Shown in pieces: positions 452 to 13,639 of a DNA stretch of 64,000 nt. Where the stretch lies: positions 1-64,000 of IMG/VR virus record IMGVR_UViG_3300046007_012472. One strand, written 5' to 3'. The notes beneath the pieces are model-generated. The model saw only the letters and a list, made by a program, of their open reading frames with translations, ran no database searches and was not told the DNA's origin. Every line of letters starts with the position of its first letter. Positions within the stretch are counted from its first letter, which is position 1. This DNA is from a virus. The translations under genes were made by a program, and so were the position numbers.

Positions 452-455
452 TTTT

Positions 456-528: not shown

Positions 529-550
529 TTTACATTTTTTCTCACGAATT

Positions 551-580: not shown

Positions 581-586
581 GGTAAT

Positions 587-670
587 AAAACCGGGAGGAC
601 CAACCTCCCGGCTCGCCAAGGCGGATAGATCACCTCCGACTTGTAGCCCAAATGGGCGGGGTGCCTCGGC
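587..670 (-). ncRNA. putative late small RNA antisense to the 16S rRNA 3' end (h45/anti-SD)
   Basis: TAAATA (676-681, minus) ends 5 nt before a G start; closing stem GCCGAGG/CCUUGGC; contains GGAGGUGAUCUAUCCGC; ends in CCGGGAGG/CCUCCCGG hairpin + UUUU. Confidence 0.7.
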
Positions 671-675
671 AATGA

Positions 676-692
676 TATTTATTACATAAATA
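676..692. promoter_or_regulatory. back-to-back T4-type late promoters
   Basis: AATAAATA on minus (676-683) and CATAAATA on plus (685-692); T4 gp55 consensus is TATAAATA. Confidence 0.65.
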
Positions 693-701
693 TTAAATGC
701 C

Positions 702-1670
702 ATGGATGCAATCTCTGAAGATTTAAAACGCTGGTTTAAGGAAAGGTGGGTGGATATTTCCCGGAAAGACAAGTCCGGGAAACACCCACCCTGTGGGCGT
801 AAGAAGTCTTCCAAGAAGGGCTACCCCAAATGCCGTCCTTCCGTCCGGGTGAGCTCAGAGACCCCGGAAACGACCGGAGAGATGTCCGGGTCGGAGAAGA
901 AGGCTGCGGTGCGTCAGAAACGCTCTGCGGAGGCTAAAAAGAAAAGAAAAGGAAAGAAGCCTATCATGACTTCACATCATAATATCAAAGAAGAATATCT
1001 TGAAGAAAAGAATGTTCCGACCAATAAAAAACTTTATTCAGCAGTAAAAGCACAAGCAAAGAAAAAATTCAAGGTCTATCCATCTGCATATGCAAATGCA
1101 TGGCTTGTCAAAACATACAAAGCTAGAGGTGGAGGATACAGATCCGTAAATGAGGCACACGATATGGGCGATTATAAAAAAGAAGCCATCGACATGGCAA
1201 TGTCAGAACTGATGAAAACCCAAAAATATGCAGGAGAGCTTTTGGGTATCATGAAAAAAGCAAAAAATGTTGAACCTTGGATACAAGGAAAAATTACCAC
1301 AATAGGTGATTATATTGGTACAATAAAACATTATCTTGAATATAGACATTCAAAATATGGAAAAATTATTGAATCAATAATGGAAGGCAAAAAAGACATG
1401 CCTTGCAACAAACCCCGCCCTTCCACCAGTGCCGGTAAGAAGATGATGGTAAAGGCATGCGAAAATGGCAAAGAAAAAATCGTACATTTTGGTGCTAAAG
1501 GATATGGACACAACTACAGTGCCGCCGCCCGCAAGTCATTCAAGGCTCGCCACAAGTGTTCAGAGAAAAAGAGTAAACTCTCTGCTCAATATTGGGCATG
1601 CAAAAAACTTTGGGCTGGTAAAGGTGGCTCCAAGTCTTCGTGCCCACCGGGAAGAAAATGTAAGTATTGA
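702..1670 (+). CDS. basic modular late protein of T4-like phages (possible internal head protein)
   Basis: Lys-rich modules DLKRWFKERWVDI..PCGR, VYPSAYANAW, EPWIQGKIT, KIVHFGAKG..SFKARHKC separated by xxE motifs; late promoter upstream. Confidence 0.7.
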   Translation: MDAISEDLKRWFKERWVDISRKDKSGKHPPCGRKKSSKKGYPKCRPSVRVSSETPETTGEMSGSEKKAAVRQKRSAEAKKKRKGKKPIMTSHHNIKEEYLEEKNVPTNKKLYSAVKAQAKKKFKVYPSAYANAWLVKTYKARGGGYRSVNEAHDMGDYKKEAIDMAMSELMKTQKYAGELLGIMKKAKNVEPWIQGKITTIGDYIGTIKHYLEYRHSKYGKIIESIMEGKKDMPCNKPRPSTSAGKKMMVKACENGKEKIVHFGAKGYGHNYSAAARKSFKARHKCSEKKSKLSAQYWACKKLWAGKGGSKSSCPPGRKCKY

Positions 1671-1691
1671 GAAGATTCTTGACTTGACATC

Positions 1692-1719
1692 TTGACTTCC
1701 AGTTTGAATCTGATACAAT
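1692..1719 (+). promoter_or_regulatory. sigma70-type early promoter
   Basis: TTGACT-N16-TACAAT with TGn extended -10. Confidence 0.75.
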
Positions 1720-1730
1720 AGAATCATCGT

Positions 1731-1782
1731 GAGCGATTGAGATCACAGACATCGGATTCACTCGCTTTTCTTTGTCGATGTC
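1731..1782 (+). promoter_or_regulatory. 5' UTR H-type pseudoknot candidate abutting the RBS
   Basis: Stem GAGCGA.TGA/TCA.TCGCTT; loop GACATCG (1748-1754) pairs with CGATGTC (1776-1782) directly before AGAAGGA. Confidence 0.5.
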
Positions 1783-1797
1783 AGAAGGATTTATGTT

Positions 1798-2091
1798 ATG
1801 GCCAATACAATGTCCAAGACTCGTAAGGTAATTAATTTCCTTTCGAGCGGTAAGAGCCTCACCGCTGCGCAGGCTCGCGCTCGCTTCGGGGTGCAGAATC
1901 TCCGTGCGACGATCAGCAACATTCGTGAGATGGTTGAGGAATATGGTAACTGGGAAGTCGTTGCTTCGAAGAATGCTTCGGGTAACACCTCTTACACCAT
2001 GGTCGATACCCACCCGGGTCGTCGTACCTATCGCTTCAACGCAGACGGTACTCGTACTCGCGCTAGTCGTGCTAGCCGTTCATCTCGATAA
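1798..2091 (+). CDS. small basic winged helix-turn-helix protein
   Basis: KVINFLSSGKSLTAAQARARFGVQNLRATISNIR HTH pattern; RBS AAGGA. Confidence 0.75.
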   Translation: MANTMSKTRKVINFLSSGKSLTAAQARARFGVQNLRATISNIREMVEEYGNWEVVASKNASGNTSYTMVDTHPGRRTYRFNADGTRTRASRASRSSR

Positions 2092-2105
2092 TTTGTCCTT
2101 GTGGA

Positions 2106-2137
2106 CATGTTGGGGTAAAACCCAACATGCTCTTTTT
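2106..2137 (+). terminator. intrinsic terminator
   Basis: CATGTTGGG-GTAAAA-CCCAACATG then CTCTTTTT. Confidence 0.75.
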
Positions 2138-2163
2138 AATCTACATATGTTGGAGGTTTAATT

Positions 2164-2394
2164 ATGGGTAAACTATATTATTCCAAAGCAATTGTAGACG
2201 GTAGATGTGTCGATCTTCTCTTGAGTGAAGATGAAATGGAAACAGCGGCAGAAAGAGCTCTGGACAATCCAGAAATTGTTGTTTCTTTTCCTGAATCTCA
2301 TGGAAGTTGTTGGAGTGCCGAAAAGCCTCCAAAGTGTAGTTTTTGGTCTCGTCTTATGAACAAGTGCTGTGAATGCAGCAAGAAAGAAGGTTAA
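2164..2394 (+). CDS. hypothetical protein, Cys-rich C-terminus
   Basis: 76 aa ORF with GGAGG RBS. Confidence 0.7.
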   Translation: MGKLYYSKAIVDGRCVDLLLSEDEMETAAERALDNPEIVVSFPESHGSCWSAEKPPKCSFWSRLMNKCCECSKKEG

Positions 2395-2396
2395 TC

Positions 2397-2702
2397 ATGG
2401 CTGTGAAGCTTATTCGTCTTACTACGGGCGAGGAAATTCTCGCGAAGGCTGAAGCCAACCCCACGGGTTGGACTCTCAAGGATCCTGCTATTATCGTTCC
2501 GGTCGGACAAGGAAAGCTTGGGTTTGCCAAGTGGCTTCCTTATGCTCAAACCGAAAAGGGTGTGGAGATTCCATCAAACTTTGTGATGTTCCATCTTGAC
2601 CCTGATCCTGATCTTGTGTCTCAATACACTAGCATGGTCACTGGTCTTGTAGTTCCCGGTCCAGCAGCAACACCACAATTCCGTATCGCAGGAGCAGACT
2701 GA
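2397..2702 (+). CDS. conserved T4-like phage protein (Sm-like fold candidate)
   Basis: VKLIRLTTGEEILAK...LKDP...WLPYA pattern common in T4-like phages. Confidence 0.7.
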   Translation: MAVKLIRLTTGEEILAKAEANPTGWTLKDPAIIVPVGQGKLGFAKWLPYAQTEKGVEIPSNFVMFHLDPDPDLVSQYTSMVTGLVVPGPAATPQFRIAGAD

Positions 2703-2719
2703 ACCTAAAGAGGTCCCCA

Positions 2720-3106
2720 GTGACTTCCGATAAAGTTCGTAAATACATTGATATGGCATATCCGATCTGCTTGGATATCGAGCGGCAAAAAAAGCATGTC
2801 TCGATTATCCTTCACAAGAAGCGAGTCGTTGGAGTAGGCACGAATTCCTTTGGCTCTACTCATCCGAAGGCTAAGCAGATCGGATATCCATACGATGAGA
2901 TGCATAGCGAATTAAATGCTCTTCTTCGCGTGGACAAGGGACTTCTCAAGAAGCGACCGAAGCTTGACTTGATCAATGTCCGGTTTAACCGTTTTGGTGA
3001 ATTGAGAATGTCCCGTCCATGCGATAAGTGCATGCCGTGGTGTGAAGCCTTGTTCCGTACTATATGGTATACTACTGATGAAGGTATCTTCAAGTTGAAA
3101 GAATGA
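2720..3106 (+). CDS. zinc-dependent cytidine/dCMP deaminase-fold protein
   Basis: HSE and SRPCDKC zinc/catalytic motifs; GTG start with GAGG RBS. Confidence 0.8.
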   Translation: MTSDKVRKYIDMAYPICLDIERQKKHVSIILHKKRVVGVGTNSFGSTHPKAKQIGYPYDEMHSELNALLRVDKGLLKKRPKLDLINVRFNRFGELRMSRPCDKCMPWCEALFRTIWYTTDEGIFKLKE

Positions 3107-3122
3107 TTACATAAATAAAAAT

Positions 3123-3446
3123 ATGAAATCATTCAAAGCATTTATTCTAGAACAAGATTCTCCTTTTTGGTGGATGAGAATGGCTATGGGTCAAGGAGAA
3201 TATTCGGCACAACCATTTAGAACACTTGCACCTCAAAACTCATATACCTATGATGGTGGTGTAGAAGTTGCAAGTTCTCGACCCGCAAATGTACAACCTG
3301 CAAGAGTACAACCTGCAAGAACCCAACCGGCAACACATTCGCCCGCTTCGACCAGAGTATCAAGTGAAATTAATTCATCAAATTTAGAATCATCAGAAGG
3401 CCAAACTGATAAATTTAAAAGAACGACAGCATTCGAAACAAGATAA
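3123..3446 (+). CDS. late hypothetical protein, possible internal head protein
   Basis: TAAATA 5 nt before ATG; MKSFKAFILE N-terminus; VQPAR repeats. Confidence 0.65.
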   Translation: MKSFKAFILEQDSPFWWMRMAMGQGEYSAQPFRTLAPQNSYTYDGGVEVASSRPANVQPARVQPARTQPATHSPASTRVSSEINSSNLESSEGQTDKFKRTTAFETR

Positions 3447-3463
3447 ATTTATGGAGATATATT

Positions 3464-3619
3464 ATGATTGAAGAAGGCGCGAGAGTTATTATTGTCGAAA
3501 GTCGAGAAAGTGGAATCGTTGAATCTAAGGCAGGGGAGCATGATTATCGTATTCGTCTTGCCGATGGTTCTTTGGTTGTTTTGCATGAAGACGAAATTCT
3601 TCGTTTTTTGAGAGACTGA
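3464..3619 (+). CDS. 51 aa hypothetical protein (not in ORF track)
   Basis: MIEEGARVIIVESRESGIVE...LRFLRD; GGAG RBS; fills gap between neighbours. Confidence 0.65.
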   Translation: MIEEGARVIIVESRESGIVESKAGEHDYRIRLADGSLVVLHEDEILRFLRD

Positions 3620-3620
3620 T

Positions 3621-3872
3621 ATGTTCCGATTGTTCATCGATATTCCGATCTCCGCAATCAACACGGAGCATGCTGTTGAACAAGCTCAAGGTCTTGTCAA
3701 CAAAATGATTCTTAATGATGATATGCAACAGCACTTCAAGTCTGTAAATATCGAGCAAGTTAATTATCGTCTTGGTCATGATGAGGATCGACAAAAGTCA
3801 AATTACTTCATGATTGATGATAATGGTCATTGTTCAACAAAGAAGACAAAAGTGACAATTGCTGTTGAATAG
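3621..3872 (+). CDS. hypothetical protein
   Basis: 83 aa ORF in operon; VNYRLGHDEDRQKSNY. Confidence 0.7.
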   Translation: MFRLFIDIPISAINTEHAVEQAQGLVNKMILNDDMQQHFKSVNIEQVNYRLGHDEDRQKSNYFMIDDNGHCSTKKTKVTIAVE

Positions 3873-3940
3873 GGATTGGTGTAACGGTAGCACCTTTGAC
3901 TTTGGATCAAATTGTCTAGGTTCGAATCCTAGATCCCTAG
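3870..3940 (+). tRNA. tRNA-Gln(UUG)
   Basis: Anticodon arm TTTGA-CTTTGGA-TCAAA; acceptor TAGGGAT/ATCCCTA; starts on the TAG stop of the upstream ORF. Confidence 0.92.
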
Positions 3941-4249
3941 TTATAAATTACTAGTGATATGATGTAATTTAGCTTGTAATTCTCTTAACTTTTCAGCATG
4001 AAAATTTTGATAAGATCCAGAAGTTAATCTGGAAGTGTCTCCACTTGCCATTCCCCATCCTTGTAACTGTGATGTATGATGAGAAATTTGTTGTCTTAGG
4101 TAATCAACATGCAAATCTACTATTTTAGGATCGCTTCCTCTATACAATTTTCCTTTAATTGGATTTGCTTCTAAAGGTGGCAAATCTTCTTGAGGGGTTT
4201 CTAATGCCTCTCTTAGAGCAGTTTTTATTATGTCTAATCTGGATCTCAT
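3941..4249 (-). CDS. late hypothetical protein
   Basis: TATAAATA at 4268-4275 (minus) and AAGGA RBS upstream. Confidence 0.65.
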   Translation of the reverse strand: MRSRLDIIKTALREALETPQEDLPPLEANPIKGKLYRGSDPKIVDLHVDYLRQQISHHTSQLQGWGMASGDTSRLTSGSYQNFHAEKLRELQAKLHHITSNL

Positions 4250-4281
4250 GCGTAAATTCCTTTTAAATATTTATATAACAG

Positions 4282-4309
4282 TTGACATCTGAATATTCTC
4301 TGGTATAAT
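4282..4309 (+). promoter_or_regulatory. sigma70-type early promoter
   Basis: TTGACA-N16-TATAAT with TGn. Confidence 0.85.
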
Positions 4310-4341
4310 ATGGATGTTGGGACGGGAGTGTTGAATTTGAC

Positions 4342-4412
4342 GCGCCGAGGGCGGACAGTTTCGCAGGGGTGCTTATAACACCCTCAAGCCCGGGCAGCAC
4401 GGGATCGGCGTA
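4342..4412 (+). tRNA. non-canonical tRNA-Ile(UAU)-like element
   Basis: Acceptor GCGCCGA/TCGGCGT + A; D stem GCGG/TCGC; anticodon arm GGGTG-CTTATAA-CACCC; T arm CCCG-GGCAGCA-CGGG without TTC. Confidence 0.7.
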
Positions 4413-4417
4413 TTCTT

Positions 4418-4681
4418 ATGAAAAAGTATTATGCAATCGACGCAGGAAACGAGAATTACCTAAGTGATACGATATATCAAGACAACTCTGCTCGGACTGG
4501 CACTCTGCTTTATTCTAAAAAGTCAGATGCTCTTGAATGTCTTGAAGAGATGGAAAGCATCTGCAAGTATATGAAACGCAAGAGTACATACAGCATGAAT
4601 AAAGTTCAAACGATGGATGGTCCTGTGATTGTAGACGGAGTATGGCATGAACGACTCAAGGGAAACTCGAAATCTAATTGA
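4418..4681 (+). CDS. hypothetical protein
   Basis: 87 aa ORF between the tRNA-like element and the methyltransferase. Confidence 0.6.
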   Translation: MKKYYAIDAGNENYLSDTIYQDNSARTGTLLYSKKSDALECLEEMESICKYMKRKSTYSMNKVQTMDGPVIVDGVWHERLKGNSKSN

Positions 4682-5189
4682 TCATTATCACTATTGGAAT
4701 CATGATGCTATTCTCGCTGAACTTGATTCTCGCAGGCATAATTTTAGCGTTCTTTGTTGCAATCTTTACAATGACTTTAATATTGCAAGCGTTATACGGA
4801 ATGCAAACGCTTTTCTCGCTTCCGAAGTATTACTATATGGGTCCAAGCAGTTTGACCGCAGGGGCACGGTTGGAACCCATCATTACACTCGATTCCGACA
4901 CCTACCTTCGTATGACGATGTGCGAGCGTACTTGTCAGATAAATTCGTGGTCGGAATCGATAATGTTCCCGACTCGAAGCCTATCGATGAATTCGATTGG
5001 CCTACCGATAAGCATGTTGTGATGGTCATGGGGCAGGAACAGGTGGGTGTTCCTATGGAGATTCTTGACATCTGTGATGTCACTCTTTATATTAAACAAT
5101 ACGGTTCTGTACGAAGCCTTAATGTAGCATGTGCGAGTTCAGTTGCTATGTACGATTATTGTAGTAAAACGATAAAATCAGGTGTTTAA
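4647..5189 (+). CDS. SpoU/TrmH-family SPOUT RNA 2'-O-methyltransferase
   Basis: NIASVIRNANAF motif 1, VMGQEQVGV motif 2, IKQYGSVRSLNVACA motif 3. Confidence 0.92.
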   Translation: MNDSRETRNLIDHYHYWNHDAILAELDSRRHNFSVLCCNLYNDFNIASVIRNANAFLASEVLLYGSKQFDRRGTVGTHHYTRFRHLPSYDDVRAYLSDKFVVGIDNVPDSKPIDEFDWPTDKHVVMVMGQEQVGVPMEILDICDVTLYIKQYGSVRSLNVACASSVAMYDYCSKTIKSGV

Positions 5190-5624
5190 TTCTGGATTTT
5201 CTTTTTGCTGACGGTCAAGCCATGCTCTTCCTTTATCTGGTTTTCTTGTATTTTGTGCTTCTCTTTGTTGTGCATCATCTACGCGAACATCTCTTTGTCT
5301 TAATTCTTTTTTGATTGTATGCATAGTATGATGAAATCCACTGAAACCACCTATTTGTTGTTGGTGGTCGTGTATTTGTTTTAATGCATCTCTATGTCTT
5401 TTTATTCCACTACTAGTGCTTATTACAGTTATGTGCTCACCAGTTTTTGGGTGATGTATTTGGATATGTCCACTTTTTCTTTTTCCTTGACCACGATTAA
5501 TAATATAACCCAATAATATGGCTAATTTTTTAATTTGTTCAGGAGCATCGTGATCTGTATGATTTATACCATACAGATATTTCTGTTGACTTTCCTCATT
5601 TAAAAACTGTAAAAATGTTAGCAT
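5178..5624 (-). CDS. late protein with HicA-like motif
   Basis: TATAAATA 5 nt before ATG; MLTFLQFLNE N-terminus; LGY...KSGHIQIHHPKTGEHITV. Confidence 0.6.
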   Translation of the reverse strand: MLTFLQFLNEESQQKYLYGINHTDHDAPEQIKKLAILLGYIINRGQGKRKSGHIQIHHPKTGEHITVISTSSGIKRHRDALKQIHDHQQQIGGFSGFHHTMHTIKKELRQRDVRVDDAQQREAQNTRKPDKGRAWLDRQQKENPELNT

Positions 5625-5669
5625 ATTAGTATTTATATGCCACACCTAAATATGGATAGAGGTTTTATT

Positions 5670-5807
5670 ATGTCAAGAAAACATGATGCCGGTAAGGGAG
5701 ATACATATAGAAAAGTAGACTATAAAAAATGGTCAGAAAATTGGGATAAAATTTTCTCAAAGAAAAGGAAAAAAAATGCCAACACAAATAACCCACGCAG
5801 CAAATAA
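5670..5807 (+). CDS. 45 aa conserved small phage protein (not in ORF track)
   Basis: MSRKHDAGKGDTYRKVDYKKWSENWDKIF; CTAAATA and GAGG upstream. Confidence 0.65.
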   Translation: MSRKHDAGKGDTYRKVDYKKWSENWDKIFSKKRKKNANTNNPRSK

Positions 5808-8205
5808 AGTAACTTATAAATGGACTTTTAATCAAGATGTTCAGGGCGGAACATTCTGGGATGGAAGTCCGTATATCATAAACACACCAGGTTTAAAACT
5901 ATTAAATGTGGAGATGATATCAGAACATGGAACAGAGGGACCAAACAGAGTAATTTCTGATATTGAACTTGGATATTTTAAGAAACCGGGATTTAAGGGA
6001 GAACTTTATATCAATGGTTTGATGAAAAATCCAAAAGGCATGCATGATTATAGTTCAACGGGAGTTAAAAGAGATAAAAATACCGCATTTGATTCTAGAA
6101 GTTTTGGTACATTCGACCAAGGTTGGATACGATTCAGAAATGTAAGAGATCCAGTCACCAAAAAAAATGTAAAAGTTCCCATACCAACAAATTTAGATTC
6201 ATCATATCCAAACTTTAATTTGACCAAGTTCTTGGAAACAAAAACAGAACTTGAAAGCGGTGGTATAAATGTTACAACTGGCGATGTTTTGGTTGTACAA
6301 TGGTCAAACTTTAACAGAGATGCCTCTTTCGCGTGGGACATCAAGAGAGCAACTGGATTTCCTTATCAAAGAATAAAAAGTAGATCGTGTGCATTGTCGT
6401 ATGGAACATTGTTCGTTTTGAATGCAGCACCAGCATCAACTTCATTCAGACCCCCTGTCCTTTGGCCAGAGGGACAAGAAGCAAGCAGACCAATTTATCC
6501 AGTGTCTAAAATAACTGATCGTCCTACACAAGAAGAATTAATTCCAAATCCAGCACCAACACAAAAAGTTTCAAATTTCACAAACGATCCTTCATTTAAG
6601 ACTTTCTGTTATGGAATGCCGTTCGGTGGAGGAACAAATTATTCTCAGGCACTTCCATTATATCCAGCAAGTGTAAAGGGTGATATTTCTGCTTATGGAG
6701 CATATTATCAAAAACCACTAGTATCTCGTTTGGCAACTTTATATTCTGTTGATGTTTCAGATGCACAAAGATTAGAAAATCTGAAAGTCATAGTACAATA
6801 TGGTATAGATGCATTTGGTTCTATAAAATCATTTGCATCTACATCAAGTGGTGCAGGACAAAAACCATGTTCCGCTCGTCCTTGGTCAATTATTGCAGGA
6901 TACTTCTTGGGCGTACCTGACATGAAAGCACCAGAATCAGAAATGCTTAAAGACACTATAAGAACAACAGCATATTTAAATGAAAGAGGGGCGGGAGCAG
7001 AGTTAGAAGATGAAGATGGTGAGTCGGAGGATCAATTAACAGTAAATGAAAAAACTCAAAATATGATTGACCTTTACGGTGATCCGTATGTAGAAGGAGC
7101 AGAAGGACTTACTGCAAAGAAAAGATGGTTGGCACTGCAGACTGCACTGGAAGCACAATGTTACTACAAAGTAAAAGACAAAGTTGGAAGTATTTTAGAT
7201 TATAGAACTTTGGGAAGAACTCACAGAAGAACTTTTTCTGGGGCAGGTGCAAACTTACAACAAACAAATGAAAATACCGAATTTGGATTGATCAGTACAT
7301 TTAAGTCAAGTCTGTCTTTCAGAGGAAATTTTGCAAAAATTCAATGGAATACGGTTCCACCAGATTTAAATAAACAATGGACTGCATCACATGATGGAAA
7401 AGCACCAACTTTCTGGTATTCCTACATCAAAGTAATTTCTGGTCCGGGAGCCGGAGATACCTTATACAGGATTATAAAATCTTGGGGTGACTTTAGAAAT
7501 TCCATAGCAGACAATCAAACGAATGCCACAGGATATGGATTTATTTTAGATAGACCATGGCAACACGGACAGCCTGATACGACAACCACATTTGAAATGA
7601 TAAGCTTTATAGAGAGAAATGTTGGTGAAATTTTCTATCTAATAGGTCCAACTCGTTTTAAAGGTATGGCAGATGCAAATCTTTCTCCGACCACAACATA
7701 TGCACCAATAGCTGAAAATTTGGTTACACCTCTATACGGTTGGATGAAATATATTGAGAGAACAAAAGGAACAAATCCAGATTCAGATAAAGGTTCTGTT
7801 TTGACTCATGAATATGTGGATAGAATAATAGGTGACAGTCCATACGAATGGGTAAGTTATAGTACAGATCGCCATTACTTAGGATATGTTCCATGGGAAG
7901 CAGCAGTCTTTAATAAATTCTACAACAGACCAAATGATCGTGCTGGTCAAGCAGCATTGATAAATTGGGATACTATTCCAGGAATTAAGTATTGGCACGG
8001 AATCACAGTAGATGATTATAGAAATATTCCTTTACCCGGAGACTTTAACAATAATGATATAGTCGATAAAGCAGATGTAAAAATGTTAGTCGATGAATGG
8101 AATAAAGAACTTACTGGTGCTACTTATGATTTGAACAGAGATGGAATAGTAGGAGTTGATGATTTGAAAATACTTATTAATGACTATTACGGAAAAACCC
8201 AGTAA
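5776..8205 (+). CDS. 809 aa protein with C-terminal dockerin-like (paired EF-hand) domain
   Basis: GDFNNNDIVDKAD...YDLNRDGIVGVDDL duplicated Ca-binding loops. Confidence 0.8.
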   Translation: MPTQITHAANKVTYKWTFNQDVQGGTFWDGSPYIINTPGLKLLNVEMISEHGTEGPNRVISDIELGYFKKPGFKGELYINGLMKNPKGMHDYSSTGVKRDKNTAFDSRSFGTFDQGWIRFRNVRDPVTKKNVKVPIPTNLDSSYPNFNLTKFLETKTELESGGINVTTGDVLVVQWSNFNRDASFAWDIKRATGFPYQRIKSRSCALSYGTLFVLNAAPASTSFRPPVLWPEGQEASRPIYPVSKITDRPTQEELIPNPAPTQKVSNFTNDPSFKTFCYGMPFGGGTNYSQALPLYPASVKGDISAYGAYYQKPLVSRLATLYSVDVSDAQRLENLKVIVQYGIDAFGSIKSFASTSSGAGQKPCSARPWSIIAGYFLGVPDMKAPESEMLKDTIRTTAYLNERGAGAELEDEDGESEDQLTVNEKTQNMIDLYGDPYVEGAEGLTAKKRWLALQTALEAQCYYKVKDKVGSILDYRTLGRTHRRTFSGAGANLQQTNENTEFGLISTFKSSLSFRGNFAKIQWNTVPPDLNKQWTASHDGKAPTFWYSYIKVISGPGAGDTLYRIIKSWGDFRNSIADNQTNATGYGFILDRPWQHGQPDTTTTFEMISFIERNVGEIFYLIGPTRFKGMADANLSPTTTYAPIAENLVTPLYGWMKYIERTKGTNPDSDKGSVLTHEYVDRIIGDSPYEWVSYSTDRHYLGYVPWEAAVFNKFYNRPNDRAGQAALINWDTIPGIKYWHGITVDDYRNIPLPGDFNNNDIVDKADVKMLVDEWNKELTGATYDLNRDGIVGVDDLKILINDYYGKTQ

Positions 8206-8211
8206 TCACAG

Positions 8212-8240
8212 TTGACAGAGTGCTTTTAACTTGGTATACT
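8212..8240 (+). promoter_or_regulatory. sigma70-type early promoter
   Basis: TTGACA-N17-TATACT with TGn; followed by a GC hairpin at 8241-8259. Confidence 0.75.
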
Positions 8241-8284
8241 TATAAACTAACCCCCACATGGTGTGGGGGAGAAATGGAGATTTT

Positions 8285-9064
8285 ATGAAGAAGTTTGCAA
8301 CTGTATTGTCTGGATTGGCAACTTCGGTGGCTTTGGCGGGTGATCCCGCCCCGGCAGCGAAGCCCGCTCTGGGCGATCTGAAGTTGGACTTTGGTGCTGA
8401 GGCATCACTGTACAACTTCAAGGGAAACGGCGGGTCGATCCTTGCCATCGTTCCTGAACTCGAAGTTCATGGACTGGCTCAGGGACTCGTTCTTTTTGCC
8501 GAACTCCCTGTGTACGGAGACGATAATCTTACCAATACCACTGGTCTTGGTGATCTTCGTCTCGGTGCTTCTGTTCGCGTTGTTCAAGAGGCTACCGATT
8601 TTGGTGCCGTTTGGCTCGATGTGAATGGCGGAGCCGAAATTCCCACTGCTGGTGGTGAACTCGGTTCTGCAAATGTGAACCCGTTTGTCGGGTTTGTTTT
8701 CGGTCTCGATGAAATTGCGAAGTCTGATTTTGACTTCACTCAAACCTTCGAGTACAAGTTTGTCGGTGGTCCTGCATTCAATCCGTACCTCGGTGGTCAG
8801 ACTGATGCAGACATCATCTTCATGCGTACGGATCTCTCGGTTCCTGTTTGGGGCGATGCACTTGTTGGTGCCGTCACCGTCAAGCAGAACTACACCGTCG
8901 ATCCCGGTGAGCAACAGCTCTTTGTTGGACCCAGCGTCGTCTGGAAGCCAACTGCTGCCACCACCGTTGACTTTGGAGTAGATCTTCCAGTGTGGCAAGA
9001 CCTCCAATCCTTCCGTCCTGAAAACAATTGTGTTGTCTCTGGCGGGCTTACTATCAACTTCTAA
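8285..9064 (+). CDS. outer-membrane beta-barrel protein (COG4313/Phenol_MetA_deg-like)
   Basis: Sec signal MKKFATVLSGLATSVALA; GLGDLRLG motif; alternating beta strands; terminal Phe. Confidence 0.75.
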   Translation: MKKFATVLSGLATSVALAGDPAPAAKPALGDLKLDFGAEASLYNFKGNGGSILAIVPELEVHGLAQGLVLFAELPVYGDDNLTNTTGLGDLRLGASVRVVQEATDFGAVWLDVNGGAEIPTAGGELGSANVNPFVGFVFGLDEIAKSDFDFTQTFEYKFVGGPAFNPYLGGQTDADIIFMRTDLSVPVWGDALVGAVTVKQNYTVDPGEQQLFVGPSVVWKPTAATTVDFGVDLPVWQDLQSFRPENNCVVSGGLTINF

Positions 9065-9075
9065 GGAGAAATATT

Positions 9076-9228
9076 ATGAACGAATCTAAAACTTGCACTG
9101 CTGGGGCTGCTCCGTGTGTTTTTTGCTGGCGTAATCCCCGTCACTGGTACTTCCTGATTGCGACTCTTCCGTTCTTTGCAGCGGGTGTTCGCTTCATTGC
9201 GGACATGCTCGGTAATGTCAGCCAGTGA
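9076..9228 (+). CDS. 50 aa membrane peptide
   Basis: AAGGAG RBS; one hydrophobic segment; CxxC. Confidence 0.65.
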   Translation: MNESKTCTAGAAPCVFCWRNPRHWYFLIATLPFFAAGVRFIADMLGNVSQ

Positions 9229-9246
9229 TCATTGATTGTTGATCAG

Positions 9247-9278
9247 AACGGCATGGGAGAAATCCTGTGCCGTTTTTT
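9247..9278 (+). terminator. intrinsic terminator
   Basis: AACGGCATGGGA-GAAA-TCCTGTGCCGTT + T run. Confidence 0.8.
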
Positions 9279-9485
9279 ATGTTTATGGAATTCAAAAATC
9301 CGATTCCAGTTGTCACGCCTATGGGTGATGGATATGCAATTTATGTTCGTGATGGTGGAACATTCGAAAATGACATCTTCACAGTTGTGCTAGAAGAAGG
9401 CGGAAAAATATTGCATTTCAGATCAGATCAGATTCTGATGCATGCAAATGCGACATTCGATATTAAGAAGACTCGGGTGGTTTGA
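9279..9485 (+). CDS. hypothetical protein
   Basis: EFKNPIPVVTPMGDGYAI ORF followed by hairpin + T8 at 9495-9518. Confidence 0.65.
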   Translation: MFMEFKNPIPVVTPMGDGYAIYVRDGGTFENDIFTVVLEEGGKILHFRSDQILMHANATFDIKKTRVV

Positions 9486-9642
9486 TTTTATTCGCCATGC
9501 ATGGGCATGGTTTTTTTTCTAATTGTATATCAGAAGAATTTCTAAATTGTATTACTTTATTAGTTGGTTTTTCTGTTTTTTGTTCACCATGAACTAAAAA
9601 TTTAAAAATATATTGAGGCAAATGTTCGGATATGTAATGCAT
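9463..9642 (-). CDS. 59 aa hypothetical protein (not in ORF track)
   Basis: MHYISEHLPQYIFKF...KKPCPCMANKIKPPESS directly downstream of the Cys-rich gene. Confidence 0.5.
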   Translation of the reverse strand: MHYISEHLPQYIFKFLVHGEQKTEKPTNKVIQFRNSSDIQLEKKPCPCMANKIKPPESS

Positions 9643-9667
9643 AAAATTTCTTTCTTATATATTTTTA

Positions 9668-12600
9668 TTACGGAGAAGGACCACCACCACCGGGGGGACC
9701 GCCTCCGCCAGGGGGACCTCCTCCACTATCTGGTTCACACGATTCGCCTCCGGATGCTGGTGGAACATTCCCAGGAGAATTTGTGCCACACGCACATTCT
9801 CCAGCCCATATTTGCGGACAATCGGTCGATATACTATTAATAGAATCGGGATAAATAAATCCTCTTCCTGTTACAACATAATTATCAAAAGCTATAATAT
9901 TTTCTGGTTGCAACTGATAACATTCAAAATATGTTTTTATTCCTTTGTAAGTATCTGGAACAGGAACACCATTATTCATCGTGCATTTCCAACAACATCC
10001 TACAGGATTAAAATCAACTGGAGTTCCCAAAAATTGACCATCATATATGAAAGGCCAACCTGCTCCAGGATAAAAAGGACAATTTTCTCTAGAAGAAGCC
10101 CTGTGTGTAGGAAGATGAAGTGGAGGAGGACTGTGTTCAGGGGCATCTACTCTTGGATCACAACATCTACATCCTTCCGGGCCATAATCTAGTGTGGGAT
10201 TTTTACATCCAGCAGAAGCAAAACAATAACTCGATGGACACATATCAGATGTATCTGGTTGCCCTCCACCCAATATTCTATTTTGAATTTGATCACATAT
10301 TTCTCTATGTGCTATAGAATTTGAAAATAGATTTGGAACTGCATTTGCTATTTCTCTTGGTATTTGTAAATTTCTGCACATATGAGGGCAAAAATTTCCA
10401 TAATTACCGGTAGTGACATTTACTTTGTACAAATATGAATCTATTTTTCTTGCACATTCATATCCTCTATTCGGCAAGTATCTTTGTGTATAATACATGA
10501 ATCTGATACCGTCACAATTTGATTTTAATGACAAATTACTACACGGAGTACCTCCGCCTCCAATTTCCCAATAATCTTTACAAACATCAGATCCATAACA
10601 TTCTAATCCAACACAAGATGGTCCTCCTTCTGCAGCTTCTAAACATTCTACTTGAATTGGTGATGTACATTCTTCTCTAAAAATTGGATTTCCTTCTTCA
10701 TCAAATCCATCTTTTATTAATATACATTCATCACAAATATTTTCTGGAACTATACATTGTTGGAGTGGACCGTTTCTTTGTGGTACTCCCATAAGACCAT
10801 CTAAACAACCAAGAAAACTTCCATTACCTCTGAATCTTGGAAGATCTGGTATTTTTACATCTAAATTTATTTCTCCTGGTCCGGCACCAAAATTATATCC
10901 ACCACAGACATAAGACCATCCTCCGGGTCTTGCATGCATGTAAACCCATTGTGTATCTCTCCATAATTTAAAAGCTTTATATTCTGGAGTTTCTGGTTCT
11001 TCAGATCCCGGTGCTGGAGGTAAAGGATATGGACCACCATTCCACGGATCTCTTATCAAATCTGTCGGAAGTTGTAAAGATTCAAATTGTCTACCTTGAG
11101 GATATCTTTCCATTCTTGCAGAGGGAGGAGGTACAGAAACAATGTTTGGTCTGGCTTTTAATGGGTTTGAAATGTTTGGTTCCATGATTGGATCAGGATA
11201 TTCTGGGGGGACTGCTAAAATAAAAGAAGGATTAATTGCCCACCTTTTTCTTACTGGACCCAAATATTTCATTTGAGAGCAAAATTGACTGCTACAAAAA
11301 GATTCACTGCATGTGGTCGCCGGAAAAAAGTTACCACCAGTAAATTCACAATATTGAGCTGAAGTCTCACCTGCGCATGTATTTCCAACACAACAAGATC
11401 CTATATTGGGATCTCCATTTATTATTCCACCATAAGCAGGAGCTGTAAATGTATTGCCCCTTAAAGCTCTAAGTTCAGAACTAGCTTCTTGTCTCCAATC
11501 ACCAACATCCAAATAACCACCAGCAGAAAGTTTTTTCATTATTTCTTGTGGGGGTGTTAGTTTTTGTGCAAATGCTAAATGTATTCTTCTTTTATCTGTT
11601 TCTGAAATATAACCTCTTTCAACTGCGTCTTGTATTTCGAAGTCAAACAAAGGAACTCCAGAACAAGAATATATCCAAAATCTAGGAGCTAATTTTGATG
11701 TATTGTATCCTAATGGAGTGCCTGGATTTTGTGGATCATCTAGCCATCCACCGACTATTCCATTAGGATCGTTATGTTCGGGATTTAAATCACAATGAGC
11801 TAATTCATACCAGTGTTCACAGTGAACAACCCCGACTAAATGCTCATAAAGTGTTCCGTTAAAGTGTTCTCGTACAGTAGCTTCAGACTGTCCTATTGTA
11901 TATTCAAATTCAAGAGCAGGATTAAATTGAATGTTTCCCTCATCATAACACATGATATCCAGGAGCCACATGTAATATGGGTCTCCTTCCATCTGTCTTC
12001 TTCTGTATTTTGAAAGTCTTTTTCCTCTTGGACCAGGATCAGGAGGACCCAGCGTATCTTTTCTTTGACCACTTCCCATACATTGACAGTTATACCATGG
12101 ACTGACAATTCCACCACATTCAGATGAACAAAGAGCATCATTTTCCATACCATCTGGTTGTGAACCAGTAGAATAATCTAAACAAGAATTTTCATAATCA
12201 TAATTTGGATTGCCACAATCACTTCCTATTGTTTCTGTAACACTGGTTGGATCACAATAAGAACATAGTCTTGAGGTTATATTTCTTCTACCATTTGTAT
12301 ATCTTCCTGTTGGTTCATATTCAATTTTAAAGTATTTTCCTATGTAATTATAATAAAATCTTACATTTGATTCTTCTAATTTTGAACGATTACAACATCT
12401 CGATACAGGAGTTAATTGTCTGCAACCACCGGGCAGTAAACAAGTATAGTTAGCGTCCGGATCTCCAATAAATTGTGCCGGACTACCAACACAAAAAGGA
12501 CAAATTCTTTCTCCATTATCATTAAAACAATTAGAACCACATGCTTCAGGTGGATTTTCTGGATTACAGCAAAAATAATTTCCAGGACAGCATTCCGGGC

Positions 12601-12844
12601 CTTCTGGAGCAGGCCAATATGGTCTTTCGTATTCAAATATCAAAGCTTCGTTTTTTGACGGACAACAACCATCACTTTGAGTTACAATATGTCCCTGCAT
12701 GCATCCTTTACATTCAAGTTTATCACATTGACAACATTTACATTTTGTTAAATCTAAAGTGGGGTCTGCTTGTAATTGTCGAGCCCCTTTTCTAAACATC
12801 TTATCAAATATTCTATTAGGCTGTTGATTATAAAAATTTCTCAT
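9668..12844 (-). CDS. 1058 aa cysteine-rich protein, probably virion-associated
   Basis: Many CC/CxC clusters, a GSCC..C......C...GG.F....C repeat unit and a GGGPP tail. Confidence 0.8.
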   Translation of the reverse strand: MRNFYNQQPNRIFDKMFRKGARQLQADPTLDLTKCKCCQCDKLECKGCMQGHIVTQSDGCCPSKNEALIFEYERPYWPAPEGPECCPGNYFCCNPENPPEACGSNCFNDNGERICPFCVGSPAQFIGDPDANYTCLLPGGCRQLTPVSRCCNRSKLEESNVRFYYNYIGKYFKIEYEPTGRYTNGRRNITSRLCSYCDPTSVTETIGSDCGNPNYDYENSCLDYSTGSQPDGMENDALCSSECGGIVSPWYNCQCMGSGQRKDTLGPPDPGPRGKRLSKYRRRQMEGDPYYMWLLDIMCYDEGNIQFNPALEFEYTIGQSEATVREHFNGTLYEHLVGVVHCEHWYELAHCDLNPEHNDPNGIVGGWLDDPQNPGTPLGYNTSKLAPRFWIYSCSGVPLFDFEIQDAVERGYISETDKRRIHLAFAQKLTPPQEIMKKLSAGGYLDVGDWRQEASSELRALRGNTFTAPAYGGIINGDPNIGSCCVGNTCAGETSAQYCEFTGGNFFPATTCSESFCSSQFCSQMKYLGPVRKRWAINPSFILAVPPEYPDPIMEPNISNPLKARPNIVSVPPPSARMERYPQGRQFESLQLPTDLIRDPWNGGPYPLPPAPGSEEPETPEYKAFKLWRDTQWVYMHARPGGWSYVCGGYNFGAGPGEINLDVKIPDLPRFRGNGSFLGCLDGLMGVPQRNGPLQQCIVPENICDECILIKDGFDEEGNPIFREECTSPIQVECLEAAEGGPSCVGLECYGSDVCKDYWEIGGGGTPCSNLSLKSNCDGIRFMYYTQRYLPNRGYECARKIDSYLYKVNVTTGNYGNFCPHMCRNLQIPREIANAVPNLFSNSIAHREICDQIQNRILGGGQPDTSDMCPSSYCFASAGCKNPTLDYGPEGCRCCDPRVDAPEHSPPPLHLPTHRASSRENCPFYPGAGWPFIYDGQFLGTPVDFNPVGCCWKCTMNNGVPVPDTYKGIKTYFECYQLQPENIIAFDNYVVTGRGFIYPDSINSISTDCPQIWAGECACGTNSPGNVPPASGGESCEPDSGGGPPGGGGPPGGGGPSP

Positions 12845-12881
12845 GATTCATCCTATAGGTTTGAACTTAATATGTATGTCC

Positions 12882-12909
12882 TTGACATCTAGTTTTTTTG
12901 TGGTATACT
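12882..12909 (+). promoter_or_regulatory. sigma70-type promoter for the tRNA cluster
   Basis: TTGACA-N16-TATACT with TGn. Confidence 0.8.
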
Positions 12910-12922
12910 TGTGGTAGATCAT

Positions 12923-12996
12923 ATTCCCGTAGCTCAATCGGATAGAGCAACGGTTTTCTAAACCGTTGGTTACAGGTTCGAGTCCTGTCGGGAATG
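12923..12996 (+). tRNA. tRNA-Arg(UCU)
   Basis: Anticodon arm ACGGT-TTTCTAA-ACCGT; canonical T arm. Confidence 0.95.
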
Positions 12997-12999
12997 TTC

Positions 13000-13072
13000 G
13001 CGGGCGTAACTCAGTTGGTAGAGTGATAGCCTTCCAAGCTATATGTCGAGGGTTCAAATCCCTTCGCCCGCT
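13000..13072 (+). tRNA. tRNA-Gly(UCC)
   Basis: Anticodon arm ATAGC-CTTCCAA-GCTAT; acceptor GCGGGCG/CGCCCGC. Confidence 0.95.
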
Positions 13073-13132
13073 TTCCTAAATACTGTGTCGGAGATTGAAA
13101 TGAAAATTAAACTTTTACCATGGAGGTACAAA

Positions 13133-13387
13133 ATGCTTGGACTTGGTTTTAGAACTACATCGTATGCGTTTGCGGCTGCTGCTGGTTTTCTCGTTCTTGC
13201 TGGACAGGAATATCACAAGTTTGCTTTTGCAAGTCTTGTGTGTGCATTGATTCTTGCTTATTTGAAGATCAGTGAAGAATTTGCTGATCGTCGTAACGAC
13301 TGGAACAATCGTCGCGTAGATGATCTTGATGATATGATGCATCGTCATATTTCAGAACTTCAAGAGAAGAAGGCTGATCGCCAGTGA
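13133..13387 (+). CDS. small two-TM membrane protein
   Basis: GGAGG RBS; two hydrophobic segments followed by a charged tail. Confidence 0.7.
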   Translation: MLGLGFRTTSYAFAAAAGFLVLAGQEYHKFAFASLVCALILAYLKISEEFADRRNDWNNRRVDDLDDMMHRHISELQEKKADRQ

Positions 13388-13412
13388 TTCAAAGCCGGGG
13401 AAACCCGGCAAC

Positions 13413-13486
13413 GCTCCCATAGATTAACCGGCTAAATCCCCGCCCTTTCAAGGCGGTGACTCGGGGTTCGAGCCCCCGTGGGAGTA
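13413..13486 (+). tRNA. tRNA-Glu(UUC)
   Basis: Anticodon arm CCGCC-CTTTCAA-GGCGG. Confidence 0.95.
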
Positions 13487-13490
13487 TTTT

Positions 13491-13563
13491 TCCTTCATAG
13501 CTCAGCAGGCAGAGCGTCGAGCTGTTAACTCGAATGTCGTTGGTTCGAGCCCAACTGAAGGAG
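13491..13563 (+). tRNA. tRNA-Asn(GUU)
   Basis: Anticodon arm TCGAG-CTGTTAA-CTCGA. Confidence 0.95.
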
Positions 13564-13571
13564 CTAAAAAA

Positions 13572-13579
13572 TATAAATA
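13572..13579 (+). promoter_or_regulatory. T4-type late promoter
   Basis: Perfect TATAAATA. Confidence 0.8.
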
Positions 13580-13584
13580 ATTAT

Positions 13585-13639
13585 GCCGCTTAGGACCGTC
13601 AGGGTGCGAGACTCCTCATTCCGGGGAGTCTCGCCTTTT
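13585..13639 (+). ncRNA. putative late small RNA antisense to 23S rRNA helix 69
   Basis: G start 5 nt after TATAAATA; CTTAGGACCGT is the exact reverse complement of 23S ACGGUCCUAAG; followed by a 12-bp hairpin (13606-13634) + CTTTT. Confidence 0.7.

What the first reader, a model, noticed from the sequence alone, without database searches (positions are those of the whole stretch)
587..13639. Candidate system: two late phage small RNAs antisense to the ribosomal subunit interface (16S h45/anti-SD and 23S H69)
Seen: two unrelated ORF-less units (587-670 minus; 13585-13639 plus) share one architecture: T4-type late promoter (TAAATA), 5-nt gap, GCCG start, a 17-nt segment complementary to rRNA, then a GC terminator hairpin. 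Each sits directly beside a tRNA cluster. Established: the targets (16S about 1523-1539 and 23S about 1913-1929, E. coli numbering) are near-universal functional sites lying close together at the 30S-50S interface, and each covers the 3' strand of a hairpin plus adjacent bases. Inference: the phage makes RNAs that base-pair with host rRNA, to block SD-led initiation or subunit association, shield or splint rRNA against host defence nucleases, or guide modification. Two independent rRNA matches in the same promoter context are unlikely to be chance. I know of no described phage anti-rRNA sRNA system.
Basis: partly seen in the sequence, partly recalled or inferred. Interest (0 to 1): 0.95.

Follow-up and report, generated by a model that had tools for sequence, protein, structure and literature searches.

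The report
Two phage small RNAs mirroring ribosomal RNA
An uncultured T4-like lake phage carries two real, conserved, non-coding small RNA genes; the one stretch of each that never changes is the mirror image of a working part of the host ribosome's RNA (the 16S tail that docks messages, and helix 69 of 23S), so the phage probably acts on ribosomes directly with RNA, but neither a transcript nor binding has been shown.

Summary
Both units are in the sequence as described. Inside this window their match to rRNA is no better than chance. The support comes from relatives.

Unit 1 (587-670, minus strand) has 10 distinct relatives in lake-phage contigs. Three helices co-vary (96% of cells paired, against 42-58% when partners are slid). 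G-U pairs fix the minus strand. GGAGGUGAUC, the complement of the 16S 3' tail, is the only block shared by the two diverged types. No ORF behind it is conserved.

Unit 2 (13585-13639, plus strand) is a minimal member of a large, uncatalogued phage RNA family.
- A seed-blind pattern found 8 relatives, all with the identical CUUAGGACCGU, the complement of 23S 1919-1929.
- Their terminators co-vary and their upstream context differs.
- 23 of 41 longer forms add a loop, UUCGCU(ACC), complementary to the adjoining 23S 1929-1938.
- In E. coli K-12 the only perfect targets of both seeds are the seven rRNA operons.

No Rfam family, cultured-phage BLAST hit or paper describes either RNA. This scan has noted the anti-23S family, and anti-16S/anti-23S pairs, on other DNA.

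The shared GCCG start is a coincidence. The two units lie 13 kb apart, and joint action is unproven. Pairing with rRNA is inferred, at about 0.5.

The parts
676..683 (-). Late-promoter-like box AATAAATA of unit 1. TAAATA is invariant in all 10 family members and always lies 5 nt before the G start.
587..670 (-). Unit 1 RNA, 84 nt. Closing helix P1 (670-663 with 622-615), small hairpin P2 (657-654 with 649-646), a large loop carrying the seed, terminator-like hairpin (612-591), UUUU (590-587).
   Evidence: Fold z = -4.0. Model R1 and alignment A6: 96% of cells paired against 42-58% when partners are slid; 19 of 23 pairs change on both sides. G-U pairs at P1 positions 3 and 4 exist only on the minus strand.
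621..637 (-). Seed of unit 1. GGAGGUGAUC (637-628) is invariant in all 10 members and complements 16S 1530-1539. The extension UAUCCGC (627-621) takes the match to 16S 1523.
   Evidence: The extension varies only C<->U within the window type.
13572..13579 (+). Perfect T4-type late promoter box TATAAATA of unit 2.
13585..13639 (+). Unit 2 RNA, 55 nt. A 21-nt open 5' tail (13585-13605), a 12-bp hairpin (13606-13634), then CUUUU. It starts 21 nt after tRNA-Asn, so it could also be made as the 3' trailer of the tRNA operon.
13589..13599 (+). Seed of unit 2, CUUAGGACCGU, the complement of 23S A1919-G1929 (the 3' strand of helix 69 and the bases after it).
   Evidence: Identical in all 8 relatives found by a pattern that leaves the seed free. 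The promoter-plus-seed pattern found 51 IMG/VR loci, against 15 for a reversed-seed control.
378..529 (+). Context: tRNA-Lys and tRNA-Leu with their own consensus sigma-70 promoter (334-361) and terminator (551-571). They converge on unit 1.
12922..13564 (+). Context: tRNA-Arg, Gly, Glu and Asn, directly upstream of unit 2 on the same strand.

Best explanation
Both units are genuine non-coding RNA genes of a T4-like lake phage. Each is transcribed from a late-type promoter (TAAATA, 5 nt, G) to a short hairpin terminator. Unit 2 may also be released from the 3' end of the tRNA operon.

Each RNA works through one conserved, at least partly open segment that pairs with host rRNA.
- Unit 1 is a gene-less 'super Shine-Dalgarno' (SD). 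It docks on the free 3' tail of 16S rRNA in 30S subunits, with 10-14 sure pairs and up to 17. It thereby occupies the anti-SD and competes with SD-led messages.
- Unit 2 is a stripped-down member of a widespread phage RNA family. It presents CUUAGGACCGU to the 3' strand of 23S helix 69 and the bases that follow, either in 50S subunits whose helix 69 is free or in newly made 23S rRNA.

The likely net effect is a late change in how host ribosomes are used.

Shown: the genes, their structures, and conservation of the seeds. Inferred: transcription, pairing with rRNA, and any effect.
For: Unit 1.
- A gene-anchored, seed-blind search found it in all 8 close relatives whose upstream DNA is held.
- There are 10 distinct sequences of two diverged types. 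P1, P2 and the terminator all co-vary.
- GGAGGUGAUC is the only block common to both types. The second type (L003, L089) extends it to 14 contiguous complements of the E. coli-type tail.
- Predicted duplexes with the 16S tail are -30 to -33 kcal/mol.
- No start codon or ORF is conserved behind it (sequences).

Unit 2.
- The promoter and the 21-nt tail are invariant in 7 distinct sequences, while the terminator stems change by compensating pairs. The upstream neighbour is a tRNA, a hairpin or a protein gene.
- The same 11-mer follows a late promoter in 41 distinct RNAs of quite different folds. 23 of them carry TTCGCT and 16 carry TTCGCTACC, the complement of 23S 1929-1938; none of 15 control loci do.
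- The 3' half of the L121 RNA aligns to the reverse complement of 23S 1930-1968.

Targets and precedents.
- In E. coli K-12 the only perfect targets of either seed are the 7 rrl and 7 rrs genes. The phage's own 76 kb holds no target within one mismatch for unit 2.
- rreB mRNA, with a 17-nt SD, binds 30S strongly (PMC5711450).
- A PNA (synthetic antisense oligomer) against helix 69 blocks translation, and a PNA against the 16S mRNA-binding site is cited for sequence-specific growth inhibition (PMC12828698).
Against: - No transcript has been seen and no RNA run was available.
- Within the window the complementarity is at chance level.
- Unit 2 has only 11 sure pairs, and most of its target lies inside the helix 69 stem of mature 50S.
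- In the longer family members the 5' half of the seed is itself paired in a helix (CUUAGG with CCUAAG), so it is not simply an exposed seed there.
- In unit 1 the GGAGG half is about half-masked by a small internal hairpin (mean unpaired probability 0.5). The C<->U changes in its extension fit that hairpin as well as they fit pairing with 16S.
- A phage needs translation late in infection, so a plain ribosome inhibitor is not an obvious benefit.
- The host, and so its exact rRNA sequence, is unknown.
Confidence: 0.5

Rival explanations
1. They are ordinary trans-acting small RNAs whose seeds pair with host or phage mRNAs, or with other small RNAs. The resemblance to rRNA complements is incidental, or it exploits rRNA-like motifs in messages.
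For: The layout is the classic bacterial one: an open 5' or loop seed followed by a terminator hairpin. An 11-nt seed is typical for mRNA targeting. Only 35% of the phage genome is held, and the host genome is unknown.
Against: An mRNA target would drift with the phage or host. Yet the same 11-mer is kept in 41 RNAs of unrelated fold and gene context, plus a second loop matching the adjoining 23S bases. The held 76 kb has no target for unit 2. In E. coli only the rRNA genes match perfectly.
Confidence: 0.15
2. They are protein-binding decoys or mimics. The conserved bases are read by a protein, for example a GGAG-cutting RegB-type nuclease, ribosomal protein S1, or an rRNA-modifying or rRNA-cutting enzyme, and not by rRNA.
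For: In the long anti-23S forms the seed sits in a helix plus internal loop, which looks more like a protein site than a free seed. The GGAGG of unit 1 is partly masked. From my own knowledge, T4 RegB cuts GGAG in early messages.
Against: A mimic of rRNA should be sense, but both seeds are antisense. The minimal unit 2 keeps only the open tail and drops all the surrounding structure. No candidate protein was identified. A SPOUT methyltransferase lies nearby (4647-5189), but from my own knowledge such enzymes are not known to use guides.
Confidence: 0.15
3. They are mobile promoter-plus-hairpin cassettes, or simply the terminators of the neighbouring tRNA operons, kept by recent exchange. They have no function in trans.
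For: Unit 2 sits exactly where the tRNA operon needs a terminator, and it appears behind different upstream neighbours like a shuffled module. From my own knowledge, T4-type phages carry mobile promoter/stem-loop cassettes (PeSL). A relative in one lake run has 865 other bases in place of the 167 that hold unit 1.
Against: Recent exchange would keep the hairpin too, but the hairpins have changed by compensating pairs while the tail is invariant. Unit 1 points away from any gene and has two further co-varying helices that a terminator does not need. The tRNA-Lys/Leu operon has its own terminator at 551-571.
Confidence: 0.1
4. Unit 1 is a tiny mRNA of the rreB type: an over-long SD followed by a very short ORF.
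For: rreB has a 17-nt SD and a 14-codon ORF with a GTG start. In the window a UUG lies just behind the 17-nt match.
Against: That frame runs through the terminator with no stop inside the RNA. It stops after 6 codons in L002. The UUG is absent in L003 and L089 (sequences). No peptide is conserved.
Confidence: 0.03

Closest known systems
rreB / rreR small mRNAs of Alphaproteobacteria (Hahn et al. 2016, PMC5711450)
   Same: A short RNA with 16-17 nt complementary to the 16S 3' end, far beyond a working SD. For rreB, strong binding to 30S subunits was shown experimentally, and the long SD impedes translation instead of helping it.
   Different: rreB encodes a 14-residue peptide and is a bacterial gene. 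Unit 1 has no conserved start codon or ORF, is phage-encoded behind a late promoter, and holds the SD in a loop closed by a co-varying helix.
Uncatalogued phage RNA family antisense to 23S helix 69-70
   Same: Identical 11-mer CUUAGGACCGU a few bases behind a late promoter, or inside a tRNA cluster. The junction CGUCAGG(G) is shared with the L121 and L132 forms.
   Different: Unit 2 lacks the P1 helix, the antisense helix 69 hairpin and the second loop UUCGCUACC. Only the open tail and a plain terminator remain. It looks like a deletion between the two CGU triplets; this is inference.
Seed-plus-terminator base-pairing sRNAs, and the tRNA 3' trailer sRNA 3'ETS-leuZ of E. coli (own knowledge)
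   Same: A conserved open 5' segment followed by an intrinsic-terminator hairpin. Unit 2 lies in the 3' trailer of a tRNA operon, as 3'ETS-leuZ does.
   Different: The known examples pair with mRNAs or other sRNAs, not with rRNA. Dependence on Hfq is unknown here.
Synthetic antisense oligomers against rRNA: PNA to helix 69 (Kulik et al. 2017) and PNA to the 16S mRNA-binding site (Hatamoto et al. 2009), as reviewed in PMC12828698
   Same: They aim at the same two sites. Per the review, the helix 69 PNA blocks translation and E. coli growth; the 16S-site paper's title reports sequence-specific growth inhibition. Both sites are therefore reachable and sensitive.
   Different: Those are man-made and delivered from outside. 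These would be natural RNAs made by a virus.
STAB-SD 5' stabilisers (B. thuringiensis cry3A, phage SP82; own knowledge) and ribosome-associated non-coding RNAs such as the Val-tRNA fragment of Haloferax (PMC5711459)
   Same: An SD-like sequence, or a small RNA, that binds the small subunit without starting translation.
   Different: STAB-SD protects a long downstream message, whereas unit 1 ends in a terminator 20 nt after the seed. The tRNA fragment does not use SD pairing.

Membership tests
Phage anti-23S (helix 69-70) RNA family (uncatalogued) | Invariant CUUAGGACCGU 5-15 nt behind a late-promoter box | tested here: met
   Window 13572-13599. 51 IMG/VR loci against 15 for a reversed-seed control. 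8 of 8 relatives found seed-blind carry it.
Phage anti-23S (helix 69-70) RNA family (uncatalogued) | Second conserved loop (A)UUCGCUACC, complementary to 23S 1929-1938 | tested here: not met
   Absent from unit 2 and from all short-form relatives. Their terminator loops vary. Present in 23 of 41 family RNAs.
Phage anti-23S (helix 69-70) RNA family (uncatalogued) | Helix pairing the 5' half of the seed with a downstream CCUAAG, plus an antisense helix 69 hairpin | tested here: not met
   Unit 2 has an open 21-nt tail followed only by the terminator.
Seed-plus-terminator trans-acting sRNA | A conserved single-stranded seed and a co-varying terminator hairpin, with no conserved ORF | tested here: met
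   Unit 2: (seed unpaired probability 0.65). Unit 1: (seed 0.5).
Seed-plus-terminator trans-acting sRNA | A discrete transcript and a demonstrated RNA partner | not testable with these tools
   No RNA run holds the sequence.
rreB/rreR-type small mRNA with extended SD | At least 16 nt complementary to the 16S 3' end | tested here: inconclusive
   Against E. coli 16S: 15 Watson-Crick pairs, 1 G-U and 1 mismatch over 17 nt. Against a GCGGAUGG-type tail: 16 Watson-Crick pairs and 1 G-U. That tail exists in many real 16S genes. The host is unknown.
rreB/rreR-type small mRNA with extended SD | A short conserved ORF behind the SD | tested here: not met
   No start codon or frame is shared among the 10 members.
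Any Rfam 15 family | Covariance-model match | tested here: not met
   Nothing at either unit at E <= 10, and nothing at relatives or at the KVP40/nt-1 copies at E <= 1.
T4 late transcription unit | TATAAATA-type box about 6 nt before the start; late sigma factor (gp55) in the genome | tested here: inconclusive
   The box and the 5-nt spacing are conserved. The same box stands before structural-type genes. The phage is T4-like by gp6, gp41, gp43 and gp61 homologues. I did not look for gp55 or gp33; only 35% of the genome is held.
T4 stable RNAs C and D of the tRNA cluster (own knowledge) | Sequence relationship to the units | tested here: not met
   T4 has no copy of the unit 2 seed within one mismatch in its tRNA region. 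Only the position beside tRNAs is alike.

The most novel reading that the evidence does not exclude
The two RNAs form a matched set that re-tools or protects host ribosomes late in infection. There are two versions.

(a) The gene-less super-SD blocks SD-led initiation while the anti-helix-69 RNA acts on subunit joining. Ribosomes would then shift toward the phage's apparently leaderless late messages. The late box stands exactly 5 nt before the ATG of genes 3123-3446 and 5178-5624.

(b) The RNAs lie over rRNA sites that defence nucleases cut. They would act as shields, or as splints for a nick-sealing RNA ligase.
Probability: 0.12. Interest if true: 0.95.

Novelty: new variant of a known kind. 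Interest (0 to 1): 0.8.

Why it matters
Phages are known to take over ribosomes with proteins, and to use small RNAs against messages. I could find no description of a natural RNA aimed at ribosomal RNA itself.

Here the conserved cores of two unrelated phage RNAs point at two sites of the ribosome: the tail that selects messages and the helix that joins the subunits. One of the RNAs belongs to a family spread over dozens of uncultured large phages, and probably over the cultured Vibrio phages KVP40 and nt-1.

If pairing is real, it is a new layer of virus-host conflict. It would also be a natural proof that short RNAs can control bacterial ribosomes, which bears on antisense antibacterials. 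Finally, it offers a possible job for the unexplained stable RNAs that sit in phage tRNA clusters.

Because the target sequences are near-universal, the idea can be tested in E. coli with synthetic RNAs.

Tried and rejected
- Expression: no RNA holder was listed for the window. All 24 runs are lake-water DNA metagenomes.
- Laying contigs of four runs gave no usable picture of variation at the two units. It showed only that one relative has 865 other bases in place of the 167 bases between the tRNAs and gene 702.
- Rfam: no hit at the units, at relatives, or at the KVP40/nt-1 copies.
- BLAST of unit 2 and of two long forms against 50,697 cultured-phage records found nothing.
- T4, S-PM2, Syn9, HTVC008M and S-RIM8 have no perfect unit 2 seed. 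Their one-mismatch hits are at control level.
- RNA ligase families PF09414 and PF09511 were not found in the 76 kb held. The genome is only 35% complete and the PF09511 control rang nowhere, so this says nothing.
- Co-occurrence: model R1 found no unit-1-like RNA in the flanks of the other anti-23S loci. SD runs of 9 nt or more without a gene were about as frequent there as in the gene-702-homologue (DUF5872) comparison loci.
- Host from the 16S tail: the tail variant GCGGAUGGAUCACCUCC, which would pair perfectly with the window-type seeds, occurs in many unrelated lineages (Patescibacteria, Fusobacteria, Brevibacillus, some Gammaproteobacteria, archaea), so it names no host. The exact AUAG variant was found in only 2 genomes.
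- The plus-strand reading of unit 1, as a 5' leader of gene 702, is rejected. The G-U pairs would become A-C mismatches, and in L150 and L152 another gene separates the RNA from that gene.
- Literature searches found no phage RNA described as pairing with rRNA.

Full report
**What the window is.** It is the first 64 kb of a 76-kb IMG/VR viral contig, estimated 35% complete, with 37.7% G+C. PHROGs matches to the baseplate wedge subunit, gp43-type DNA polymerase, gp41-type helicase, gp61-type primase and ribonucleotide reductase mark a T4-like myovirus. Its polymerase is about 50% identical to those of T4-like cyanophages. All public runs that hold it are lake-water DNA metagenomes. There are seven tRNA genes.

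**The observation.**
- Unit 1, minus strand: AATAAATA, TCATT, then an 84-nt RNA (670 to 587) that ends in a 9-bp G+C hairpin and UUUU.
- Unit 2, plus strand: TATAAATA, ATTAT, then a 55-nt RNA (13585-13639) made of a 21-nt tail, a 12-bp hairpin and CUUUU.

The strict terminator scan calls neither hairpin, because the U tracts are only four long. Unit 1 converges on the tRNA-Lys/Leu pair, which has its own consensus sigma-70 promoter (334-361) and terminator (551-571). Unit 2 begins 21 nt after tRNA-Asn on the same strand, so read-through from the tRNA operon would also contain it.

**Complementarity and chance.** I compared both units with E. coli K-12 rrsH and rrlH.
- Unit 1 has 10 contiguous Watson-Crick pairs with 16S 1530-1539. 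Over 17 nt (1523-1539) it has one G-U and one mismatch.
- Unit 2 has 11 contiguous pairs with 23S 1919-1929. Its flanks pair poorly.

Within the window this is unremarkable. Random pieces of the same lengths reach these run lengths with P = 0.19 and P = 0.03. The window holds 490 ten-mers and 131 eleven-mers antisense to rRNA. With a score that tolerates G-U, more than 25 places beat both units.

**Unit 1 in relatives.** I searched with the neighbouring gene (702-1670), a homologue of the Pfam family of unknown function DUF5872. This search does not use the RNA sequence. Among the eight close relatives (81% protein identity or more) whose upstream DNA is held, all carry the RNA. In L150 and L152 another gene lies between the RNA and the DUF5872 gene. 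More distant homologues of the gene lack the RNA.

Ten distinct sequences fall into two types that share little beyond the fold. On the model-fitted alignment, 96% of cells pair, against 42-58% when partners are slid. 19 of 23 pairs change on both sides, and no shuffle reached any of these values. One caveat: one weak row (L154, plus strand) is probably spurious, and the alignment is fitted to the model.

G-U pairs at two positions of the closing helix exist only on the minus strand, so this is not a leader of gene 702. The TAAATA box always stands 5 nt before the G start. The starts read GCCG, GCUG or GUGA, so the GCCG shared with unit 2 is a coincidence.

The one block common to both types is GGAGGUGAUC. 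The second type (L003, L089) extends it to 14 contiguous complements of the E. coli-type tail. The window type continues UAUCCGC, CAUCCGC or CAUCUGC. All of these would pair, using G-U, with a tail GCGGAUGGAUCACCUCC, and that tail exists in many real 16S genes.

Those C<->U changes fit a small internal hairpin (GGAGG with CUAUCC) equally well. That hairpin half-masks the seed, whose mean unpaired probability is 0.5. I therefore count only 10-14 nt as secure. No start codon or reading frame is shared behind the seed: one frame has no stop inside the RNA, one stops after six codons, and one type has no UUG at all.

**Unit 2 in relatives.** The pattern 'late box, 5-15 nt, CTTAGGACCGT' hits 51 IMG/VR loci (41 distinct). 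A control with the 11-mer reversed hits 15.

The window belongs to a short form. A pattern that fixes the promoter, GCCG and CAGGGTGC but leaves the 11 seed positions free returns eight loci, and all eight carry the identical seed. In the seven distinct sequences the promoter and the 21-nt tail are invariant apart from the spacer. The hairpin changes by compensating pairs. The upstream neighbour is tRNA-Asn, another tRNA, a hairpin or a protein gene.

The formal ORF that starts at 13583 is 19, 26 or 51 codons long in different members. The hairpin compensations make radical amino-acid changes, so selection acts on the RNA and not on a protein.

The other 30-odd RNAs have quite different and longer folds. 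In many of them CUUAGG pairs with a downstream CCUAAG, a hairpin resembling the antisense of helix 69 follows, and a terminal hairpin shows UUCGCUACC in its loop. 23 of 41 carry TTCGCT and 16 carry the full 9-mer; none of 15 controls do. That loop is the complement of 23S 1929-1938, directly adjoining the seed's target. The 3' half of the L121 RNA aligns to the reverse complement of 23S 1930-1968.

A conserved 11-mer and a conserved 9-mer that complement adjacent stretches of one universal rRNA segment are very unlikely to be chance. Unit 2 keeps only the first element. The shared junction CGUCAGG(G) suggests that it arose by deletion between two CGU triplets; this is inference.

**Specificity.** In E. 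coli K-12 the only perfect targets of the unit 2 seed are the seven 23S genes. The only perfect targets of the 11-nt 16S tail sequence GGAUCACCUCC, which covers the unit 1 seed's target, are the seven 16S genes. The phage's own 76 kb has no target for unit 2 within one mismatch.

**Cultured phages.** T4, S-PM2, Syn9, HTVC008M and S-RIM8 lack the seed. It takes the form GAUACG-CUUAGGAC-CGUAUC. It lies in an unannotated gap of their tRNA clusters, on the tRNA strand, without a late box. The region folds well (z = -4.3 and -3.2) and has a possible long-range helix that keeps pairing through one G-U change. An 11-mer is expected about 0.1 times per genome by chance, and the two phages are related. 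I therefore call these probable members only.

**What is known.** Rfam 15 has no match. Full-text searches and a 2025 review of phage small RNAs gave no phage RNA that pairs with rRNA.
- The nearest natural parallel to unit 1 is rreB, a small bacterial mRNA with a 17-nt SD that was shown to bind 30S strongly. Unit 1 lacks the ORF.
- The nearest parallels to the proposed action are synthetic. A review reports that a PNA against helix 69 blocks translation and E. coli growth, and it cites work on a PNA against the 16S mRNA-binding site.
- This scan has noted the anti-23S family, and pairs of anti-16S and anti-23S RNAs in other lake phages, on other DNA. I treated those notes as leads and re-derived here what I use.

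**Reading.**
- I am confident (about 0.9) that both units are real non-coding RNA genes.
- I put about 0.5 on action by pairing with rRNA. That is the simplest account of why these bases, and only these, are frozen across unrelated folds and contexts.
- Joint action as one system is weaker, about 0.3. The units are 13 kb apart here and about 10 kb apart in one close relative that has both. I found no wider co-occurrence in the flanks available.
- One suggestive detail: the late box stands exactly 5 nt before the ATG of two nearby genes (3123-3446 and 5178-5624 minus) and 9 nt before gene 702. Some late messages may therefore be leaderless and independent of SD pairing.

Noticed in passing
window 3111-3125 (+), 5622-5636 (-), 686-704 (+): The late-promoter box ATAAATA stands exactly 5 nt before the ATG of genes 3123-3446 and 5178-5624 (minus), and 9 nt before gene 702-1670. 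None has an SD, so these late messages may be leaderless. Most other genes in the window have GGAG-type SDs.
   Followed up: partly
window 4647-5189 (+): A phage SPOUT/SpoU RNA 2'-O-methyltransferase (Pfam E = 1e-23) lies in the tRNA/small-RNA region. It scores below the cut-off of every NCBIfam equivalog and is nearest to TrmH and RlmB. Its substrate (tRNA or rRNA) is unknown.
   Followed up: partly
ARAGORN does not call it, and neither does the Rfam tRNA model at E <= 10.
   Followed up: partly
window 334-361 (+) and 551-571 (+): A perfect sigma-70 promoter (TTGACA, 16 nt, TG-extended TATAAT) and a clean terminator bracket tRNA-Lys and tRNA-Leu. This tRNA pair is therefore an early, host-polymerase unit, separate from unit 1.
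   Followed up: no
KVP40 NC_005083 178277-178286 (minus; L378:1395-1525) and nt-1 NC_021529 97415-97424 (minus; L379:1395-1525): These cultured Vibrio phages carry the unit 2 seed in a hairpin loop. It lies inside an unannotated, well-folding gap of about 440 nt in their tRNA clusters, on the tRNA strand. They are probable members of the anti-23S family and a possible laboratory system.
   Followed up: partly
L103:8285-8406 (-), with L119, L136 and L142: One architecture of the anti-23S family carries UAAGGAGG (GGAGG in L142) about 24 nt after the seed, with no start codon behind it. A single RNA may therefore combine an anti-23S segment and an anti-16S segment.
   Followed up: no
L092, L094, L096, L106, L131 (3' ends of their RNAs): A third recurrent motif, AAGUGAGC, sits near the 3' end of several long anti-23S RNAs. 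It resembles the complement of the 23S sequence GCUCACU near position 1100.
   Followed up: no
window 530-698, in lake run X16: A relative in one lake metagenome has 865 other bases between the tRNA pair and gene 702, where the window has the 167 bases that hold unit 1. This spacer is a variable spot.
   Followed up: no
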